A DNA stretch of 64,000 nucleotides. Source: Naegleria gruberi (lineage: Eukaryota). This document shows positions 9,779 to 49,175 of this stretch, piece after piece (positions within the stretch are counted from its first letter, which is position 1; every line of letters begins with the position of its first letter). Location: NCBI GenBank assembly GCA_000004985.1, contig GG738857.1. One strand, given 5' to 3'. A program made the translations under genes and the position numbers. A model generated the notes under the pieces. That model did not search any database, was not told the DNA's origin, and saw only the letters and a list, made by a program, of their open reading frames with translations.

Positions 9779-9994
9779 ATATTTACAAATATTACAAAAT
9801 ATTTAAAAATATTGAAAAAATTACTGTAAATTTTGATCATCACACTAAATCTGCATTAACTTTCTACACAATTGTAGTTGACGGAATTTACGGAATTGAA
9901 AATTGTAATATGACTTAATTTGACATGGGAAGTGTCCATTTCAACACGTCATGTCAAAGTTTCTAATTATCAATTCTCAAAAAACAAAAAAAAT

Positions 9995-14659: not shown

Positions 14660-16539
14660 CTACCAATTTGGTTGTGGATTTTTAGTTCTAGATTGATATT
14701 TTCTATCAAACATTTGATATAAATAACCTTCACACATTCCTTGTACTTTGTTGAAATGACATCTAACAAATGGATCAATTTTAGATGCTAAAATAGTTCT
14801 CTTAACATTTGGTCCTAAAATTGGTAATAAGAATTTCTTAAACCACCAATTACCACCTTTAGCATCTAATTGTAAATCAACCATTGTTGCCATAATATAT
14901 GGTGGAATATAAATTCTATAAACACGTGTTTGGAACTCTTCAAATGTTTTGTAATCAATTGTAGAAACATCTCTTCTTAAAATTTCATCTAAAATTAATT
15001 GACATTCTGTCATACATGTAACACCTTGTCCATAGACAGGATTTAATGATCCAACTATTTGCAATTAGTTAATGAATTAATCAATTAGTCAATTAGTAAA
15101 TGAATCAATCTTAATAAATCTTAATAAAATTGCTTACCTGAATCACCAAGTGCAAGGAAATTTTCAAGAACATGTTGATTTCCATTTTCATCCTTATATT
15201 GTGTAATCTTTTCCCAATGATTTAAAACAGTTCCATCCTTCTTATAATTTGACCAATCAATAACTGGACCTTGTTCTAAATCACAATGTTCAAAGAATAA
15301 TTTAGTCTTTTCTGAAATATCAGGTGAAACCTTACTTAAATAATCAATACAATCTTCATGATTCTTAATTTTAACACATTCTGGATTTTTACTACCAGTT
15401 TCACCAATAATAAACATTCCCTTATCTTGTGAAACTCTATAGTAAATCATACCACTTTTAGTTGGAAAACCAACATTACCAATATATGCCCAAACAGGTG
15501 TTTTACCATCTTTTTTAAAGAATCCATCTTGCATATTTGGATCTTTCAATTTGTAAATTGCTGAAGTGTAGGTTGTTGTGAGAATAATCTTACTCTTTTC
15601 CATTTCAAATTTTCTATTAGAATCTTTGGAAAATTCTTCTTCAACCCAAATTGGTGTTTGAGTTGTTAAACCTGAACAATCAATTACTAAATCTCCATAA
15701 ACTTGTTCACCTTCTTGTAATTTAACACCTTTAACACGATGAATAATTTTAGAATCTTGTGTTTGAACCTTTTCAAATATTAAACCACTAACTGTTTGAT
15801 CATCTCTGAATTGAATTTTACCCAATGGTGATGAATTTTCATCAATAGTACTACTATTATTACTACTATTATTACTATTACTATTATTATTGGTGTTGAC
15901 ATTAGTTGAAGTAGATGATTTTCCAATTAATGATGAAGAATTCTTATTAATATTCATAATTAAATCTCTAATATAAGATTCAATTTGATATCTTGTCATT
16001 TGATAACCAGGTGGACAAATAGTTTGACCTTCAATTAAACCACATAATTTATCAGATTTACCATCAATGGCAGCATAATCTGTATTTTCAATTAAAATTT
16101 TAAAAGCTCCCATCTTTTCAATTTCATTAATAAAATCAATATTTAAATAACCACCAAATAATTTCTTGAAAATTGTAATACATCTCAATAAAAAAATGTG
16201 AGTTTGAGTTCCTTGTGGAGCAGTTGACTATTACAATAATATTTAATATTAAATATTAAATTACAATATTTAACATACCTTGTTAGTTTCATATCTCTTC
16301 TTTTCAAATAAAATAACATTTTCAAAATGGAAACAAGCATTGAGTGCAGTTGTAATACCACCAATACTACCACCAATAATAATACATGTACCTTTCTTTT
16401 TCTTATCTGAAACTTGTCCAAGTTTAGAATTTTCCAATTTGACTTGAGCATCAAAGAATGGTTTAATATTATTTAACCAATAATAATAGGCATAACATGG
16501 AAGTGCAACTAGTGCAGACAATGCAAGATATCCTAACAT
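14660..16539 (-). CDS. Class A flavoprotein monooxygenase (FAD-dependent hydroxylase/epoxidase-like) with an N-terminal TM helix. Minus-strand exons 16539..16279, 16227..15138, 15054..14660
   Basis: It has an N-terminal hydrophobic helix and then a Rossmann GxGxxG (IIIGGSIGG). The spliced junction gives GDS|VGSLNPVYGQGVTCM, i.e. the GD...P..GQG FAD-binding fingerprint of class A monooxygenases. The introns are GTATGT..AG and GTAAGC..AG. There is an internal poly-Asn/Ser insert. Confidence 0.65.
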
Positions 16540-17180
16540 TTTGGACTATAGTATAGTTTAGGTGTTGAATTAATAATTATAAATATATTTGTATATTGGA
16601 GTGGTGTTATATGATGAAGTGGAGAAGAGTAATATGAATCAACCATTCGTTATATGGTTTAATAGTAATAGTTGTTGTTGTGATAATGATGAGAGGAATG
16701 GAGCGGCTATTAACACTTACTTTTTTTTCTATTCGAAAGATTTTAATTGATGCGTGCTGGAATGCTGTCATTCGATTGATTTGGAAAGCTACTTTGAAAG
16801 ATGGTAGTCAAAATACGGTATGAAACCTTCAACAGTTGATTATCAGATCTGATTACGAATTTTTCAAAAGGCTTTATGAAATTACTGTGAAATAATTGAT
16901 GAAAATATTATTTCTCAGAACTGGTAATTATTTGGTACCGAGTATTACGACATCTACTGTTACTTTACAGTTTTCCGATTTCAACAGCATCATCAAATGA
17001 GAAAAGCCTTATTCCTTGTTACTCCTTCATCAAACACAGATTGTGCTCACTATTAAAAATCAAATGCATTTTTTTAATAATCTAGATTATTGATAAGAAT
17101 TTTAGCAAACCAAAATGCAATCGAATTAAAATCTGCTCAAACAACTAGTTCTTTCGAATACGTTATTCATGATTGAAAAT

Positions 17181-17340
17181 GGATGTGTAGCTCAGTTGGA
17201 AGAGCAAGGAAAACTAGTCCAAGCTGTGTATCAAGTGAAGTGGATGGGAGATGGATGGGAATAAAACTTGATTAAAAAACAGCTAGACTCTGGGACAGAT
17301 CCCAGGCCCCTGGTCGCACGATCGAAACGTGTCACATCCA
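17181..17340 (+). ncRNA. tRNA-like RNA polymerase III gene of uncertain identity (possible intron-containing or degenerate tRNA, or a tRNA-derived element)
   Basis: The 5' end GGATGTGTAGCTCAGTTGGAAGAGCA is a canonical acceptor plus D-arm (A box). The 3' end GCACGATCGAAACGTGT-CACATCC gives a T-arm-like hairpin (B-box-like GATCGAAAC) and a strand complementary to the 5' acceptor. A T5 run follows at 17351-17355. Between the halves sits an insert of about 85 nt that forms a long hairpin (AGCTGT..ATCAAGT / ACTTGAT..ACAGCT). No canonical anticodon stem could be paired. Confidence 0.3.
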
Positions 17341-17413
17341 ATAATATTAATTTTTCATATAAATTGATTGGCAAACAAATATCAACTATGACTAAAATAG
17401 TTTATTTACAATT

Positions 17414-32560: not shown

Positions 32561-32941
32561 ATACCTAATGTAGATGTAATTTCATCATCAATTATTATAT
32601 ACTACGGGAATTTATTAATGTGGATAGTCGTGTAGGATCATCATGTGATCTTTAAAATAATAATTATCATTGGCCGATGATACAATATCTGTTTAATGTT
32701 GACTTGCTGGTAGTAAGAACAAACATCACATAAAAAATTTCATCAAGGCTGTATTCATCACGGAGAGTAATTAAATTTTGATAGAAGAAGAACAAAGACT
32801 ACTTTTTGTATATATTCTTCTCGAGATTGAACCACTATTAACAACTACTCTAACCAATCAATCAATAACATTTATCAACAACAAAAGCATCAAAAAGTGG
32901 TGCTACACCAACAACAATTTTCTACAACAACAACAAGAACC

Positions 32942-35900
32942 ATGAGTACACCCACCAACCACGATTCATCAACCAACTTGACCATTCAAGTAAATGGTGA
33001 TGAAATGTCGTTTAATCCAATCCTTCTTGGATCCATGAGTAATAATAATAACAATGAAGCAACAAGCCTTCTTCAGCCTGAAACTAGTGATGATTATAAT
33101 ACTTCTACTACACAACAGTATCATGATGATAACAACAACAACAACAACATTAATAATACATCATCATCATCTTCAACACAAGTTGTTGAGGGAAGTATAA
33201 TAGTAGAAGGTAATATTATGAGTGAATCTAAACTAAGTGAACAAGATAAACAAAGTCTTGTTAAAGAATTATCAAAAGCAATACTAGGTATATATATGAA
33301 TAATGTTATTCAAACAAGTGTTAAAGACAAAATAATAGAAACTGCAACAGATAAAACTACAGCAAACATTCTAAGTTTTTATTATAAACGAAGAGAATAT
33401 TTAAAACAACAACAACAATATCAACAACAACAAGTAAAACAACAAGTAGAACAAGTAGAACAACAAGTAGAACAAGTAGACCAAGTAGAACAACAATTAA
33501 ATAGAATAATAGAAAAGGAAGAAGGCTTGATTTCATTAGATCATCCAACAAATTTAGATGATTCTATCACAAGAATTGATTTAAATGATGAATATCAACC
33601 TCCTATTACAGAAAATAATAGTAGTAGTAATAATAATATATTAAATAATATACCTTCTTCTTTACCTTCAACAATAGATATTAGTAATAATGATAATGAT
33701 ATTGTAATGATTGATCAATCTTGTAATGATGATAATAGTAATATTAATAATATTAATCATCAACAACAATCTAATCAATTAAATGAACATCAACAACTAG
33801 ATATTAATCATCAATCTAATCAATTAAATGAACAGCAACAACTAGATGATCAACAATCTAATCAATTAAATGAACAATATGATCAACAATCTAATCAATT
33901 AAATGAATCAATTATTCAATTAAATAATGAACAATTAAATGAATCACCAATTCAATTAAATAATAATCAACAATTAAATCAATTAAATAACAAGGATATT
34001 GAAACAGATGTAGAAAATGAAGAAGAAGAATTCTATAAAAAGTATATGAATGATTTTAGAAATGATGATTTAATTGTAAACAAACATGAAGAATTATATC
34101 CATGTGAAAATTCATATATAGATCATTTTAGAGAAGCAATTTTATTAGAATGGAATGAATTTAAAAAACCAATTGAATTTAAATATGAATATATACAAAC
34201 TAGAATTGAACAATTAAAAAAAGAATATAATAATATTATACATTTAATTAATACAGATACTAAATATAGTAATAATAATAATAATGAATTAAATTGTTCA
34301 AAATTATCAGGTATTTCAAATGATAATATTAAAAATAATATAATGATAAATAGATCATCTGAATTATATAATGCTTTTTATACTCCATATAAAAGAAGAT
34401 TAGATTTATTACAACATCCATTTTTTGGAAGTTTTCATGATGTTTTTAATAGAGAAATTGAACATTTAAATCAATTAAAAGAAAAACAATCAGATTTAAC
34501 TATAATTTCATCAAATTGGGTTTCTGCTACTTCAACTAATACAACAATTAATAATAATAGTATTTTAAATGATACAAATACAAATAATAATACTAATAAT
34601 ACTACTAATAATAATAATAATACAAATAATAATTTAAAAATAACATATCCATTTCCATATATAACAACATTGGATATATTAGATTCTATTGAATTATTTA
34701 AAACAGCATCAATATCATATCCACCTAATGATAGAGCAGTACCATTATCATTTTCATCAATATTAAAATATAATAATAATAATAGTAATATTAATAGAAG
34801 AAATGTTTCATCTTCAAATAGAAGAGGTAGAAGAGGTGCAAGTAGATTATCACAAGGTAAAAGAGTTGGCAATAGATCATCTACATCATCATCTACAGCA
34901 ACAGCAACAAGTGGTGGTGGTGGTGGTGGATCAACAAATAAATCCAAACTAAATGATCTTAATCAAGATGAAGATTATGAAGAGAATTTTATACTCTATG
35001 ATAGTACTAAAGATGTTAAAGCAGCAGAAATTACAGTACCTAGTTTTAGAATATTAACAAATGAACAAGTATCTGAATTAAGTGATGAATTTTCAGATGA
35101 TGAAGATATATCAGATGTTAAATATTGTTATTTACATATTGATAAGGAAATGCAAGAACGTCAAAAATATTATATTGCTTCTTTACCTTCTTCTTCTGAT
35201 AAAAAGAAAAAGAAAACTTCAGATCAAGATTCAAAGAATTTACATTATACTATACCTAATCATGATACTTTTAAATTGGCATTTGAAAAGTTTAATAGTA
35301 CTAATACAAATACTAATAATACAAATACAAATAATAATCATAGTACTACTACTACTACACATAATGATCATTCACACCGATTTAAATATAATGATGATTT
35401 ATCAACAGAATTAAAGAGTGGTAAAAATTTAATAAGCATGTCTAATAATTCTATTAATAATACTAGTATAACAACAACATTTAATGATAAATTAACATAT
35501 CTTGTACCAATAGAAGATTTACAACAATATTCATCACAACAACAACAATCAACAGGACCAATGAATGCTAAATTAGCATTTAGTAAACATCAATTTCAAT
35601 CCAAATTAGGATCACCACAAAAAAAGAAAGATTTAAAAAAGGAATTAACAAGTATACCTAGATGGAAATTAATTTCAATTGAATCCTATGTACCATATCC
35701 TATTTTAAAAAAGTGTGATGATCCACGTGGTAATTGGAATGATTTAAAACTTAAAAGTTTAGAAAGAAGATCAAATTTAACACTTGATTTAAATACTGAA
35801 CTTACAAATAATTTATTATTTAATGATTTAAATACTATTAATACTATTAATAATAATACCATTGATACTATTAATACTAATATTAATAATTCTAATTCTA

Positions 35901-36460
35901 ATTCTAATAATATAATTGGAAGTAGTAGTAATATTAGTACAAGAAAAAGAGCTAAAAGTGAAGTAGAAAATGAATTAATTACAACAGGATCATTTATTAA
36001 AAGTAATTCATCAACAACACCCTATCATCATCTTCAACAACCTAAAAAGAAATCTAAATATGATTTTGATGATATGGTAATGGCAGATGAAGATACAGAT
36101 GAAATTGAAGATACAGATGATGATGATTTTCATCAAGAAGATGATGAACAAACTGATTCAGAAGATGATATTTTAATTTCAACTCCAAAACATTCAAATA
36201 TTACTACTATTACTACTACTACTACATTTAATACAAATACTACATTTAATACTACAGCACCACCATCAAGTAGTAATAGTAATAATAATTCTACAACTTC
36301 AATTACAACAACAACACCAACAAAATCATCATCTAAAAAATCTAAAAAGAAGAAATCAACTTCATCTAAAAAGAAAAAGAAGAAGCAAATTACAACTCCT
36401 GTTCGTGTTGATAAAGTTATTAATGATGGTACAAAGATAGTATTTAAATTACAAAAATAA
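32942..36460 (+). CDS. Hypothetical Gln/Asn-rich, coiled-coil low-complexity protein (single exon, about 1170 aa)
   Basis: It is a long ORF with Dictyostelium-like codon bias and poly-Q/N/T tracts. The internal tandem peptide repeat is QSNQLNEQQQLD x~6. No recognisable catalytic domain was found. Confidence 0.5.
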   Translation: MSTPTNHDSSTNLTIQVNGDEMSFNPILLGSMSNNNNNEATSLLQPETSDDYNTSTTQQYHDDNNNNNNINNTSSSSSTQVVEGSIIVEGNIMSESKLSEQDKQSLVKELSKAILGIYMNNVIQTSVKDKIIETATDKTTANILSFYYKRREYLKQQQQYQQQQVKQQVEQVEQQVEQVDQVEQQLNRIIEKEEGLISLDHPTNLDDSITRIDLNDEYQPPITENNSSSNNNILNNIPSSLPSTIDISNNDNDIVMIDQSCNDDNSNINNINHQQQSNQLNEHQQLDINHQSNQLNEQQQLDDQQSNQLNEQYDQQSNQLNESIIQLNNEQLNESPIQLNNNQQLNQLNNKDIETDVENEEEEFYKKYMNDFRNDDLIVNKHEELYPCENSYIDHFREAILLEWNEFKKPIEFKYEYIQTRIEQLKKEYNNIIHLINTDTKYSNNNNNELNCSKLSGISNDNIKNNIMINRSSELYNAFYTPYKRRLDLLQHPFFGSFHDVFNREIEHLNQLKEKQSDLTIISSNWVSATSTNTTINNNSILNDTNTNNNTNNTTNNNNNTNNNLKITYPFPYITTLDILDSIELFKTASISYPPNDRAVPLSFSSILKYNNNNSNINRRNVSSSNRRGRRGASRLSQGKRVGNRSSTSSSTATATSGGGGGGSTNKSKLNDLNQDEDYEENFILYDSTKDVKAAEITVPSFRILTNEQVSELSDEFSDDEDISDVKYCYLHIDKEMQERQKYYIASLPSSSDKKKKKTSDQDSKNLHYTIPNHDTFKLAFEKFNSTNTNTNNTNTNNNHSTTTTTHNDHSHRFKYNDDLSTELKSGKNLISMSNNSINNTSITTTFNDKLTYLVPIEDLQQYSSQQQQSTGPMNAKLAFSKHQFQSKLGSPQKKKDLKKELTSIPRWKLISIESYVPYPILKKCDDPRGNWNDLKLKSLERRSNLTLDLNTELTNNLLFNDLNTINTINNNTIDTINTNINNSNSNSNNIIGSSSNISTRKRAKSEVENELITTGSFIKSNSSTTPYHHLQQPKKKSKYDFDDMVMADEDTDEIEDTDDDDFHQEDDEQTDSEDDILISTPKHSNITTITTTTTFNTNTTFNTTAPPSSSNSNNNSTTSITTTTPTKSSSKKSKKKKSTSSKKKKKKQITTPVRVDKVINDGTKIVFKLQK
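33760..33995 (+). repeat. In-frame tandem repeat (~36-nt units, caatctaatcaattaaatgaaca...) encoding the QSNQLNE(Q/H)QQLD repeats
   Basis: Direct repeats can be seen in the sequence between 33766 and 33990. Confidence 0.6.
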
Positions 36461-36802
36461 TACTATTTAAAATAAATTTAATTTTTTTGAAATCAACATA
36501 TTTAAACCTATTTTGAGATATTAATATTTAATATTTAGGGTAATTGAGGTAATTGGATTTTTTAAATAGTGACTTGATTTTATTTCTTTCAGTGACTGTT
36601 TTGAATAAAGTTTAAAGGCTTGGAACATTAAGGCGAACAAGAAACATACTCTGATTAAGAACAGATAAGGTTGATCATTGTTTACAAAACTCTCAAAAGA
36701 ATATTCATTTCATGCGCGGACATGAGTTCATCGTCATCTATTAATTCCGACCAGTCGGGAGAGAGGAAGAATAGCACCTAATCAATAAAAAAAATATACA
36801 CA

Positions 36803-37129
36803 ATGACTGGAAGCCAACATATCAGTAATACTTATGCAGGACTCCTCACTATCGGAGGTATTGCAGCCTACGCAAAGAAAGGTTCTACACCAAGCTTGGT
36901 TGCAGGTGTTGGTTTAGGTGCGGCTTTTGGAGCATCTAGTTATCTTATTATGCAACAAAAGCATTTTGAAGGACATGCTTTAGCTAGTGCTGCTTCTGTT
37001 GTATTATTGGGTGCTGGTGTTAGTAGATTTTTAAAGGCTTCAAATAAGACTATTCCTTCCATTCTTACCATCTTGGGTTTAATTTCTAGTTATTATCAAA
37101 TTAACAAGGCTATTGAATGGAAGCAATAA
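36803..37129 (+). CDS. TMEM14 family small membrane protein (UPF0136)
   Basis: It is 108 aa with four hydrophobic segments and Gly/Ala-rich helices (GLLTIGGIAAYAKKGSTPSLVAGVGLGAAFGASSY), as in TMEM14 proteins. It has an A-rich ATG context. Confidence 0.65.
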   Translation: MTGSQHISNTYAGLLTIGGIAAYAKKGSTPSLVAGVGLGAAFGASSYLIMQQKHFEGHALASAASVVLLGAGVSRFLKASNKTIPSILTILGLISSYYQINKAIEWKQ

Positions 37130-46315: not shown

Positions 46316-46386
46316 TCGGGTGTGGTATAGTGGTAGCATTCCAGACTGTCACTCTGGCGACCCGGGTTCAATTCCCGGCACTCGAG
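46316..46386 (+). tRNA. tRNA-Asp (anticodon GTC)
   Basis: TCGGGTG-TG-GTATAGTGGTAGCAT-T-CCAGA-CTGTCAC-TCTGG-CGAC-CCGGG-TTCAATT-CCCGG-CACTCGA-G. The acceptor stem has 7 bp including one G.U pair. The anticodon loop CTGTCAC gives anticodon GUC, and the T-loop is TTCAATT. A T5 run at 46392-46396 serves as the Pol III terminator. Confidence 0.85.
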
Positions 46387-47084: not shown

Positions 47085-47202
47085 GGCTACGGCCATATCA
47101 CGATGAATGCACCTCATCCCGTCCGATTTGAGAAGTTAAGCATCGTCGAGCCACATCAGTACTGAGGTTGGAGACAACTTGGGAACCTGTGGTGCTGTAG
47201 TC
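47085..47202 (+). rRNA. 5S ribosomal RNA, copy 1
   Basis: GGCTACGGCCATATCACGATGAATGCACCTCATCCCGTCCGATTTGAGAAGTTAAGC...GGGAACCTGTGGTGCTGTAGTC aligns along its length to eukaryotic 5S consensus (GCCTACGGCCATACCAC...CCCGTCCGATCTG.GAAGTTAAGC...GGGAATACCGGGTGCTGTAGGC). Helix I pairs, and TTTTT follows at 47203-47207. Confidence 0.9.
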
Positions 47203-47207
47203 TTTTT
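47203..47207 (+). terminator. Pol III T5 terminator after 5S copy 1
   Basis: TTTTT run immediately 3' of helix I. Confidence 0.5.
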
Positions 47208-49052: not shown

Positions 49053-49170
49053 GGCTACGGCCATATCACTATGAATGCACCTCATCCCGTCCGATTTGAG
49101 AAGTTAAGCATAGTCGAGCCACATCAGTACTGAGGTTGGAGACAACTTGGGAACCTGTGGTGCTGTAGTC
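49053..49170 (+). rRNA. 5S ribosomal RNA, copy 2
   Basis: It is 118 nt, identical to copy 1 except ...CACtATG... and ...CATaGTCG.... TTTTT follows at 49171-49175. Confidence 0.9.
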
Positions 49171-49175
49171 TTTTT
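49171..49175 (+). terminator. Pol III T5 terminator after 5S copy 2
   Basis: TTTTT run immediately 3' of the 5S gene. Confidence 0.5.

What the first reader, a model, noticed from the sequence alone, without database searches (positions are those of the whole stretch)
17181..17355. tRNA-like Pol III gene with an ~85-nt hairpin insertion and no pairable anticodon stem
A textbook tRNA 5' acceptor plus D-arm and a matching 3' acceptor strand with a T-arm-like hairpin are separated by an insert that folds into a long imperfect hairpin. A Pol III T-run follows. I could not make positions 27-43 pair under a canonical intron at 37/38. Reading it naively would give a CUA anticodon, which is not credible. 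It may be a tRNA with an unusually long or non-canonically placed intron, a tRNA pseudogene, or a tRNA-derived small ncRNA.
Basis: seen in the sequence. Interest (0 to 1): 0.5.

Follow-up and report, generated by a model that had tools for sequence, protein, structure and literature searches.

The report
Orphan tRNA-like gene lacking anticodon arm
In the amoeba Naegleria gruberi, a gene has an intact tRNA upper half and Pol III signals, but the anticodon arm is replaced by a 104-base two-hairpin domain, so it cannot decode and is either a new tRNA-shaped small RNA or a young broken tRNA gene.

Summary
Window 17181-17340 (+), in Naegleria gruberi nuclear DNA, has a flawless tRNA "top half": a 7-bp acceptor, D-arm, UGGUC variable loop, T-arm and discriminator A, followed by a T5 run. 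A purpose-built scanner finds only this locus in the window and none in 60 randomised 64-kb sequences.

The 17-nt anticodon arm is replaced by 104 nt (17207-17310).

It is not an intron-containing tRNA. Exhaustive one- and two-intron excisions and a bulge-helix-bulge search give fewer canonical solutions than shuffled sequence. Rfam gives nothing, and my own tRNA covariance model gives only two weak half-hits.

The insert is 46% GC against flanks of 16-29% GC. The elbow carries the initiator-type A20/A54/A60 trio.

No copy lies at the orthologous site in Willaertia, and no relative was found anywhere I could search. A vault RNA is unlikely, because Naegleria reportedly lacks TEP1 and full-length MVP.

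Best reading (0.45): a Pol III-made, non-decoding tRNA-like small RNA. Main rival (0.35): a young tRNA pseudogene. Expression data and whole-genome searches, which I could not run, would decide between them.

The parts
17181..17187 (+). 5' acceptor strand GGATGTG (tRNA positions 1-7)
   Evidence: Pairs 7/7 Watson-Crick with 17333-17339. Pair probability 0.98-1.0 in the unconstrained ensemble.
17188..17199 (+). A-box-like internal promoter element TAGCTCAGTTGG (tRNA positions 8-19)
   Evidence: Read from the sequence. It lies inside the 19-mer that is unique in the window and matched in 0 of 100 shuffles. The promoter role is inferred from the general rules for type-2 Pol III genes.
17190..17205 (+). 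D-arm GCTC / AGTTGGAA / GAGC, with A14, G15, U17, G18, G19, A20, A21
   Evidence: Stem pair probability 0.77. This is the 5' half-hit of my own tRNA covariance model (14.6 bits, E about 0.09).
17207..17310 (+). 104-nt segment in place of the 17-nt anticodon arm (positions 27-43). AGG (17207-17209) can pair with CCT (17309-17311) as a 3-bp closing stem.
   Evidence: The wider stretch 17207-17315, which also includes the variable loop, is 45.9% GC. That is in the top 0.23% of all 109-nt windows, against flanks of 16-29% GC. It is unique in the window.
17216..17289 (+). Long imperfect hairpin with helices AGTC/GACT, AGCTGT/ACAGCT and ATCAAGT/ACTTGAT. Its 29-nt purine-rich loop (17237-17265) carries two GGATGGG copies, at 17242 and 17253.
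   Evidence: MFE -15.3 kcal/mol, z -2.10, 3 of 200 shuffles fold as well. Pair probability 0.70-0.87.
17290..17305 (+). Second hairpin CTGGGA-CAGA-TCCCAG (6 bp, tetraloop). Its CTGGG/CCCAG stem resembles an initiator-tRNA anticodon stem.
   Evidence: MFE -7.7 kcal/mol, z -2.91, 2 of 200 shuffles. Pair probability 0.78-1.0.
17311..17315 (+). Canonical class-I variable loop TGGTC (positions 44-48). C48 can form the Levitt pair with G15.
   Evidence: aligned to the model's variable loop.
17316..17332 (+). T-arm GCACG / ATCGAAA / CGTGT, with G53:C61 and A54, U55, C56, G57, A58, A59, A60. B-box-like CGATCGAAACG at 17319-17329.
   Evidence: The 17-mer is unique in the window and matched in 0 of 100 shuffles. 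This is the 3' half-hit of my own covariance model (9.1 bits).
17333..17340 (+). 3' acceptor strand CACATCC plus discriminator A73
17351..17355 (+). T5 run, the likely Pol III terminator, in the context ATTAATTTTT
   Evidence: The genuine tRNA-Asp gene in the same window is followed by the same ATTAATTTTT. Both genes are also preceded by TGAAA.

Best explanation
This is a tRNA-derived, non-decoding Pol III gene in the Naegleria gruberi nuclear genome.

Inferred pathway: TFIIIC binds the intact A and B boxes, which lie about 120 bp apart. Pol III starts at or just upstream of G17181 and stops at the T5 run. The intact acceptor, D-arm, T-arm 'top half' and elbow then let RNase P, RNase Z and the CCA-adding enzyme trim and finish the transcript. 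The product would be a stable L-shaped RNA of about 160 nt plus CCA.

Where a tRNA has its anticodon arm, this RNA has a branched 104-nt domain: a 3-bp closing stem, a 74-nt hairpin with a 29-nt purine-rich loop, and a GC-rich 6-bp hairpin. It therefore cannot read a codon. The tRNA half serves as promoter, processing and stability handle, and the two-hairpin domain is the payload that binds a protein or RNA partner.

Shown: the anatomy, the absence of any route to a canonical tRNA, the RNA-gene-like composition and the Pol III-gene-like flanks. Inferred: transcription, processing and any function.
For: The tRNA core is perfect. All 16 pairs of the three stems are intact, all conserved tertiary positions are present, and the variable loop is canonical. 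There were 0 such loci in 60 random 64-kb sequences.

The damage is confined exactly to positions 27-43. No excision restores an anticodon arm.

The unconstrained MFE of the 160-mer is exactly this modular design, with high pair probabilities (-47.4 kcal/mol, z -1.95). Each hairpin folds better than about 98.5% of shuffles.

The insert region is 45.9% GC, with sharp drops to 16-29% GC at the gene's edges. Only 7 stretches of the 64 kb are this GC-rich. The non-coding ones are tRNA-Asp, the two 5S genes and this element. That argues against neutral decay in an AT-rich genome.

The flanks match the genuine tRNA-Asp gene: TGAAA upstream and ATTAATTTTT downstream.

The insert is not a repeat in the window.

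The elbow has A20, A54 and A60 together, a combination reported as rare outside eukaryotic initiator tRNA (PMC10275265). So the core is not a random elongator remnant.
Against: No homologue was found. The orthologous intergenic region next to the neighbouring gene's 72%-identical orthologue in Willaertia magna lacks the element. It is absent from about 100 kb of N. fowleri, N. lovaniensis and Willaertia sequence. There is nothing in viral contigs, and the metagenome scan returned only ordinary bacterial tRNAs. So there is no covariation or conservation evidence at all.

The folding z-scores are modest, and the whole insert is not better than shuffles (z -0.71).

There are no expression data. 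N. gruberi does have tRNA pseudogenes: 41 of 924 tRNAscan-SE detections (PMC2888827 supplementary file 2).

No partner or target for the payload domain could be proposed.
Confidence: 0.45

Rival explanations
1. It is a young tRNA pseudogene. A functional tRNA gene, possibly of initiator type, suffered a complex insertion or replacement in its anticodon arm, for example filler DNA captured during break repair. Too little time has passed for the rest of the gene to decay. It may still be transcribed but does nothing.
For: It cannot decode. It is absent at the orthologous Willaertia site, so it is lineage-specific or recent. It is a single copy with no relatives found. tRNA pseudogenes exist in this genome, 41 of 924. 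Covariance models give no full-length hit.
Against: A simple insertion should leave the two strands of the old anticodon stem flanking the insert, but AGGAA and CCCCT pair at only 3 of 5 positions. The alternative, that hairpin 2 is the old arm, needs at least three separate events. Either way there would be several changes in the arm and none in the other 56 nt. The insert is GC-rich (46%) and folds into two discrete hairpins, unlike AT-rich local DNA. It is not a repeat in the window.
Confidence: 0.35
2. It is a genuine tRNA whose precursor carries one or more very long or non-canonically placed introns, perhaps with editing, and matures into a decoding tRNA. Examples would be ARAGORN's Trp-CCA model or a CUA-reading model.
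For: ARAGORN calls Trp(CCA) or CUA with an 88-nt intron, but only at thresholds lowered to 90% or below. The A-B box spacing is tolerable for Pol III (general knowledge). The acceptor features A73, G1-C72 and G5-C68 fit eukaryotic Trp identity (PMC9976931), but these features are common.
Against: ARAGORN finds nothing at default or 95% thresholds, and at 95% it already produces a false 'tRNA-Stop' inside a coding gene in L124. Its models have 3 of 5 stem pairs and C33 or A33 instead of U33. Exhaustive one- and two-intron searches and a BHB search all give fewer solutions than shuffled sequence. The insert is GC-rich and structured, unlike what I would expect of a spacer-like intron.
Confidence: 0.07
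3. It is a DNA-level element rather than an RNA gene. The A and B boxes recruit TFIIIC and Pol III to serve as a promoter for a neighbouring small-RNA gene, like the trypanosomatid 'companion' tRNA or tRNA-like genes, or as a chromatin boundary between the two flanking protein genes.
For: The A and B boxes are intact. The element sits in an 875-bp gap between the 3' end of P0001 and the promoter side of gene A. Naegleria belongs to Discoba, like the trypanosomatids. The existence of companion tRNA genes is from my own knowledge.
Against: DNA-level function does not explain the perfect 7-bp acceptor complementarity, the paired D- and T-stems, or the hairpins. No small-RNA gene or GC island lies upstream on the opposite strand; there are only chance-level snoRNA-like matches with E of 5-8.
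Confidence: 0.05
4. It is a member of a known Pol III small-RNA class with A and B boxes and paired ends, such as a vault RNA, or a Y RNA or SRP-associated tRNA-like RNA.
For: It has internal A and B boxes, paired 5' and 3' ends, a variable central domain and a T-run, which is the general vault-RNA layout (PMC7058938). A vault RNA exists in Trypanosoma brucei, also in Discoba (PMC12547018).
Against: There is no Rfam match to Vault, Y RNA, SRP or any other family at E up to 10. Naegleria spp. are reported to lack full-length MVP and to lack TEP1, the vault-RNA-binding protein (PMC12547018). From memory, vault RNAs do not have exact tRNA geometry, with acceptor directly stacked on the T-arm plus a true D-arm and variable loop.
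Confidence: 0.03

Closest known systems
Canonical nuclear tRNA genes (type-2 Pol III genes), e.g. the tRNA-Asp(GUC) gene at window 46316-46386
   Same: 7-bp acceptor, U8, D-arm with A14/G18G19/A21, 5-nt variable loop, T-arm with G53:C61 and UCGA, discriminator, A and B boxes, the same TGAAA leader and ATTAATTTTT trailer.
   Different: There is no anticodon arm. 104 nt with two hairpins sit in its place. It gets no full-length covariance-model hit (14.6- and 9.1-bit halves, against 60.5 bits for tRNA-Asp).
Eukaryotic initiator tRNA-Met
   Same: It has the A20 + A54 + A60 elbow trio that PMC10275265 describes as normally initiator-specific and rare in combination among elongators. The hairpin-2 stem CUGGG/CCCAG has three consecutive G:C pairs next to the loop, like an initiator anticodon stem (comparison from memory).
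   Different: G1-C72 instead of A1-U72 (the A1-U72 requirement is from memory). U17 is present, whereas initiators lack N17. There is no CAU anticodon; the hairpin-2 loop is ACAGAU or a CAGA tetraloop. There are 82 extra nt before that hairpin and 5 after it.
tRNA pseudogenes (41 of 924 tRNAscan-SE detections in N. gruberi; PMC2888827)
   Same: tRNA-derived, cannot decode, single locus, not conserved at the syntenic site in Willaertia.
   Different: The damage is confined to one arm, with zero defects in the other 56 nt. The replacement is GC-rich and structured rather than decayed.
tRNA genes with non-canonical or very long introns (archaeal BHB introns, Cyanidioschyzon and nucleomorph ectopic introns, archaeal tRNA-Trp intron carrying a C/D guide) - from my own knowledge
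   Same: A long structured insert inside an otherwise normal tRNA gene.
   Different: No BHB motif beyond chance, and no excision yields a canonical anticodon arm. There are no C/D boxes in the insert (read from the sequence).
Processed tRNA-like small RNAs such as mascRNA and the MEN-beta tRNA-like RNA (PMC10275265), and the trypanosomatid SRP tRNA-like sRNA-76/85 (own knowledge)
   Same: Non-decoding RNAs that use tRNA shape to be processed by RNase P, RNase Z and the CCA enzyme. The 5' end starts with GG, as noted for the MEN-beta tRNA-like RNA.
   Different: Those RNAs are about tRNA-sized (roughly 60-85 nt) with a reduced anticodon arm, and mascRNA is cut from a Pol II lncRNA. This element is a stand-alone Pol III-type gene with a 104-nt branched domain. 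There is no sequence similarity.
Vault RNA
   Same: A and B boxes, paired ends, variable middle, T-run.
   Different: No Rfam hit. Naegleria reportedly lacks TEP1 and full-length MVP. This element has exact tRNA geometry.

Membership tests
tRNA (Rfam RF00005 / canonical cloverleaf) | 7-bp acceptor stem with discriminator | tested here: met
   GGATGTG/CACATCC pair 7/7 Watson-Crick, with A73. Pair probability about 1.0.
tRNA (Rfam RF00005 / canonical cloverleaf) | D-arm and T-arm with conserved U8, A14, G18G19, A21, G53, U55, C56, A58, C61 | tested here: met
   All are present. The scanner is specific: 0 hits in 60 null sequences.
tRNA (Rfam RF00005 / canonical cloverleaf) | Anticodon arm: 5-bp stem, 7-nt loop with U33 and purine 37 | tested here: not met
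   Directly after A26 the sequence is AGGAA AACUAGU CCAAG, with 0 of 5 pairs at the 27-43 positions. No excision restores the arm.
tRNA (Rfam RF00005 / canonical cloverleaf) | Covariance-model score at or above threshold | tested here: not met
   No Rfam hit at E up to 10. My own tRNA model gives only half-hits of 14.6 and 9.1 bits, against 55-75 bits for genuine tRNAs of this clade.
Intron-containing eukaryotic tRNA (intron at 37/38) | Removing one intron leaves a canonical anticodon stem-loop | tested here: not met
   0 solutions with a 5/5 stem, U33 and R37, against 0.9 in shuffles. The ARAGORN fixed-position model has a 3/5 stem and A33.
tRNA with archaeal-type or ectopic intron | Bulge-helix-bulge motif at the exon-intron junctions | tested here: not met
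   One weak motif with 2-bp flanking helices, against a mean of 2.07 in 200 shuffles.
Eukaryotic initiator tRNA-Met | A20, A54 and A60 together | tested here: met
   D-loop AGUUGGAA and T-loop AUCGAAA. Criterion from PMC10275265.
Eukaryotic initiator tRNA-Met | Lack of N17 | tested here: not met
   U17 is present (8-nt D-loop). Criterion from PMC10275265.
Eukaryotic initiator tRNA-Met | A1:U72 pair and CAU anticodon (criteria from my own knowledge) | tested here: not met
   G1-C72, and no anticodon loop containing CAU.
Type-2 RNA polymerase III gene | Internal A box and B box plus a downstream T-run | tested here: met
   TAGCTCAGTTGG 17188-17199, CGATCGAAACG 17319-17329, T5 17351-17355. The trailer is the same as for tRNA-Asp.
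Type-2 RNA polymerase III gene | Actual transcription by Pol III | not testable with these tools
   No expression or ChIP data are available here.
Vault RNA | Sequence and structure match to the family model | tested here: not met
   No RF00006 hit at E up to 10.
Vault RNA | Host encodes the vault partners MVP and TEP1 | tested here: not met
tRNA-derived SINE or other repeat | Multiple dispersed copies | tested here: inconclusive
   Unique in the 64-kb window and absent from about 100 kb of related genomes. The rest of the N. gruberi genome could not be searched.

The most novel reading that the evidence does not exclude
Naegleria makes a functional tRNA-scaffolded small RNA. It would have a complete, CCA-tailed tRNA top half with an initiator-type elbow (A20/A54/A60), and its anticodon arm would have been swapped for a two-hairpin effector domain. 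Such an RNA would pass through the tRNA processing and export pathway without decoding. It could act as a decoy or regulator of factors that read the tRNA elbow and acceptor, or carry its purine-rich tandem UGGAUGGGA loop to a protein or RNA target. A stand-alone Pol III gene of this kind would be a class not described in eukaryotes.
Probability: 0.15. Interest if true: 0.7.

Novelty: new variant of a known kind. Interest (0 to 1): 0.4.

Why it matters
If it is expressed and functional, it would show that a free-living protist has turned the tRNA top half into a promoter, processing and stability cassette for an unrelated RNA domain. That principle is known from viral tRNA-miRNA chimeras and mascRNA, but not as a stand-alone nuclear Pol III gene in which the anticodon arm itself is swapped for a larger domain. 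The initiator-type elbow would point to links with translation initiation or tRNA surveillance.

If it is a pseudogene, it is a clean natural example of one-arm replacement. It is also a useful caution for annotation: relaxed tRNA finders call it a suppressor (CUA) or Trp tRNA, which could mislead work on stop-codon reassignment.

Tried and rejected
1. ARAGORN in default bacterial mode, with introns, and at relaxed thresholds. It makes a call only at 90% or below, with a 3/5 stem.

2. Rfam at gathering thresholds on the whole window, and at E up to 10 on the locus. Nothing relevant.

3. Exhaustive one-intron and two-intron excision searches and a BHB search. All were at or below the level of shuffled sequence.

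4. Ciliate or other variant genetic code, to rescue a CUA anticodon. Rejected: the standard code gives long ORFs, and the organism is Naegleria gruberi.

5. Dictyostelid origin, my first guess from the poly-Asn proteins. Wrong.

6. Synteny via P0001. It has no orthologue.

7. Synteny via the coronin gene in N. lovaniensis, N. fowleri and Willaertia. The region upstream of that gene is rearranged, so the result is uninformative.

8. Synteny via neighbouring gene A in Willaertia. This worked as an anchor, and the element is absent there.

9. Metagenome scan with the acceptor plus D-arm 19-mer. Only ordinary bacterial tRNAs.

10. Viral-contig scans. The unique 24-mer gave 0 hits. The gapped D-arm...T-loop pattern hit adjacent phage tRNA pairs plus one unrelated phage tRNA with an insert.

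11. Extending the N. gruberi contig through the genes at the window's edges. The ORFs do not match the annotated gene models.

12. Insert as a repeat or MITE. No other copy in the window.

13. Vault RNA. Rejected on the Rfam result and the literature.

14. Companion-promoter idea. There is no small-RNA gene upstream.

15. tRNA-Tyr origin. Eukaryotic Tyr identity needs C1-G72; the element has G1-C72.

16. The GC island at 36798-36953 as another RNA gene. It is a small protein ORF.

17. Literature searches for Naegleria tRNA introns, tRNA-like RNAs, suppressor tRNAs and small-RNA surveys. Nothing specific.

Full report
ORGANISM AND SETTING

The window is nuclear DNA of Naegleria gruberi NEG-M. 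Two flanking ORFs are exact matches to XP_002679565 (an F-box/Sel1 protein) and XP_002679446 (a coronin/villidin-like protein), both on a 573-kb contig. The window is 28% GC and uses the standard genetic code with long ORFs.

The element lies in an 875-bp intergenic gap. It is about 60 bp beyond the stop codon of P0001 (17414-18790, minus strand) and 640 bp upstream of the ATG of a FAD/halogenase-like gene, 'gene A', whose first exon starts at 16539 on the minus strand. No credible ORF overlaps the element.

The only other RNA genes in the window are tRNA-Asp(GUC) at 46316-46386 and two 5S rRNA genes at 47085-47203 and 49053-49171.

Positions 17181-17206 read as tRNA positions 1-26: GGAUGUG-UA-GCUC-AGUUGGAA-GAGC-A. 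Positions 17311-17340 read as tRNA positions 44-73: UGGUC-GCACG-AUCGAAA-CGUGU-CACAUCC-A.

The acceptor pairs 7/7 Watson-Crick. The D-stem pairs 4/4 and the T-stem 5/5, with one G-U. U8, A14, G15, G18, G19, A21, C48, G53, U55, C56, A58 and C61 are all in place. A T5 run follows 10 nt downstream.

The two halves, searched with up to three mismatches, occur nowhere else in the window and in none of 100 shuffles. A scanner I wrote for a 'tRNA core with an insert of any length' finds only this locus in the window and none in 60 Markov-randomised 64-kb sequences. In 100 kb from related species it finds only a normal 72-nt tRNA-Thr.

The leader (TGAAA) and trailer (ATTAATTTTT) are the same as those of the genuine tRNA-Asp gene.

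WHAT REPLACES THE ANTICODON ARM

The segment 17207-17310 is 104 nt, not about 85. It contains two hairpins:
Its helices are AGUC/GACU, AGCUGU/ACAGCU and AUCAAGU/ACUUGAU, with a 29-nt purine-rich loop.

AGG (17207-17209) can pair with CCU (17309-17311) to close the domain.

Folded without constraints, the 160-mer's minimum-energy structure is exactly this five-way design, at -47.4 kcal/mol. Pair probabilities are about 1.0 for the acceptor, 0.77 for the D-stem, about 0.75 for the T-stem, 0.70-0.87 for the long hairpin and 0.78-1.0 for hairpin 2.

Against dinucleotide shuffles, z is -1.95 for the whole element, -2.10 for the long hairpin and -2.91 for hairpin 2, but only -0.71 for the insert as a whole. 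The structure is therefore plausible but not statistically compelling on its own. The opposite strand folds about as well, so strand assignment rests on the tRNA consensus and the A and B boxes.

IT IS NOT A DECODABLE TRNA

ARAGORN finds nothing at default or 95% thresholds, with or without introns. At 95% it already makes a false call inside a coding gene of a related locus. Only at 90% or below does it propose Trp(CCA) or a CUA reader, each with an 88-nt intron, a 3/5 anticodon stem and C33 or A33.

I enumerated every single excision, allowing variable loops of 3-22 nt and an extra base after position 26. None gives a 5/5 stem with U33 and R37, against a mean of 0.9 in shuffles. One gives at least 4/5, against 5.4 in shuffles. 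Two-intron models give one solution, against 8.7. Bulge-helix-bulge motifs are at or below chance, 1 against 2.07.

Rfam has no match at E up to 10. A tRNA covariance model that I built from 48 tRNAs not selected for similarity to the element scores tRNA-Asp at 60.5 bits and three heterolobosean tRNAs at 55-75 bits. It sees the element only as two half-hits of 14.6 bits (E about 0.09) and 9.1 bits (E about 3). Noise in related genomes reaches 12.6 bits.

That reflects the replaced arm, not a decayed core.

COMPOSITION

The non-tRNA stretch 17207-17315 is 45.9% GC, and hairpin 2 plus the linker is 68% GC. The intergenic flanks are 29% and 16% GC. Only 0.23% of 109-nt windows in the sequence are as GC-rich.

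Just seven GC islands of this kind exist in the 64 kb. Two are inside one coding ORF, one is a small Gly/Ala-rich protein ORF, and the other four are tRNA-Asp, the two 5S genes and this element. In this AT-rich genome the element therefore has the composition of a structured-RNA gene across its whole length, with sharp edges at +1 and at the discriminator. That implies either selection or a very recent origin.

THE ELBOW IS INITIATOR-LIKE

The D-loop has A20, and the T-loop is AUCGAAA, giving A54 and A60. [quoted passage not shown] Hairpin 2's CUGGG/CCCAG stem also resembles an initiator anticodon stem; that comparison is from memory.

However, the element has U17, G1-C72 and no CAU. It may descend from an initiator gene, but it is not one. 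A Tyr origin is unlikely because eukaryotic Tyr identity needs C1-G72. The anticodon-independent identity sets for Ala (G3.U70) and Leu (C3-G70, A4-U69) are not met (PMC9976931).

RELATIVES

I could find none.
- P0001 has no orthologue.
- The coronin orthologues in N. lovaniensis, N. fowleri and Willaertia magna sit in rearranged neighbourhoods, so the element's absence there is uninformative.
- Gene A has a 72%-identical orthologue in Willaertia. A piece of its 5'-UTR exon and intron is conserved there, but the equivalent intergenic region holds no tRNA-like element.
- A metagenome scan with the acceptor plus D-arm 19-mer returned only ordinary bacterial tRNAs.
- Viral contigs lack the insert.
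- The insert is not repeated in the window.
- The rest of the N. gruberi genome could not be searched with these tools. Two attempts to extend the contig failed.

RIVALS CONSIDERED

Vault RNA shares the A and B boxes, paired ends and variable middle. But there is no Rfam match, and Naegleria is reported to lack full-length MVP and TEP1.

A trypanosomatid-style 'companion' promoter role is not supported. Nothing resembling a small-RNA gene lies upstream on the other strand.

Pseudogenes are real in this genome, at 41 of 924 detections. A young pseudogene remains the main rival. Against it, several changes are concentrated in the 17-nt arm with none in the other 56 nt, and the insert is GC-rich and modular.

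VERDICT

The feature is real and is a tRNA-derived, non-decoding, Pol III-type gene.

I favour (0.45) a processed tRNA-like small RNA of about 160 nt. Its tRNA half would provide promoter, processing and stability, and its two-hairpin domain would be the functional part. A young one-arm-replaced pseudogene is nearly as likely (0.35). A bona fide intron-containing tRNA is unlikely (0.07).

No step of expression or function is demonstrated. Whole-genome homology searches and small-RNA sequencing would settle it.

Noticed in passing
window 47085-47203 and 49053-49171: The two 5S rRNA genes lie 1,968 bp apart. In the stretches I compared, they differ by a compensatory pair in one helix: CACGAUG...CAUCGUC against CACUAUG...CAUAGUC, so a G:C pair becomes U:A. 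Both are followed by TTTTTATCTT. tRNA-Asp lies about 700 bp upstream of the first copy.
   Followed up: partly
window 17242-17248 and 17253-17259: The 29-nt loop of the long hairpin contains a tandem UGGAUGGGA repeat. Each GGAUGGG is a near-copy of the true 5' acceptor strand GGAUGUG and could pair 6/7 with the 3' acceptor strand. My covariance model used one copy as a substitute acceptor strand. By my rough estimate this could arise by chance about 15% of the time.
   Followed up: partly
L137 (IMGVR_UViG_3300034068_001817), about 205-350, + strand: A phage contig carries a single tRNA-like gene with the same D-arm (GCTCAGTTGGAAGAGC) and the same GATCGAAAC T-loop. It has a 7-bp acceptor and an insert of about 80 nt at the anticodon-loop position. 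The insert is unrelated in sequence to the Naegleria one, so this is probably an intron-containing phage tRNA.
   Followed up: no
window about 16720-16790 (minus strand) and L124 about 9830-9890: Upstream of gene A's ATG, a short stretch ending in GTAAGT is conserved between N. gruberi and Willaertia magna. It looks like a 5'-UTR exon plus an intron donor site. This places gene A's transcription start roughly 350-400 bp from the element.
   Followed up: no
window 16910-17040, minus strand: Two UGAUGA boxes and a CUGA box are spaced as in a C/D snoRNA, divergent from the element. Only chance-level Rfam matches were found (E 5-8, 15-17 bits against gathering scores of 42-48), and the region is AT-rich.
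   Followed up: partly
window 36804-37129, + strand: A GC island in an apparent intergenic gap is a 108-aa ORF, MTGSQHISNTYAGLLTIGG...EWKQ. It is Gly/Ala-rich with hydrophobic segments and looks like a small membrane protein. It fell below the ORF length cut-offs I used.
   Followed up: partly
window 32897-36460 compared with L001 6428-9622 and L002 6367-9540: There is a local rearrangement between species. The gene directly upstream of the coronin gene in N. lovaniensis and N. fowleri corresponds to a gene that lies about 6 kb downstream of the coronin gene in N. gruberi. The PIF1-helicase neighbour downstream is conserved.
   Followed up: no
L124 8347-8556: With introns allowed and the threshold at 95%, ARAGORN calls a 'tRNA-Stop(tta)' with a 115-nt intron inside an annotated F-box protein gene. 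This illustrates the false-positive regime in which the Naegleria element is first called.
   Followed up: yes
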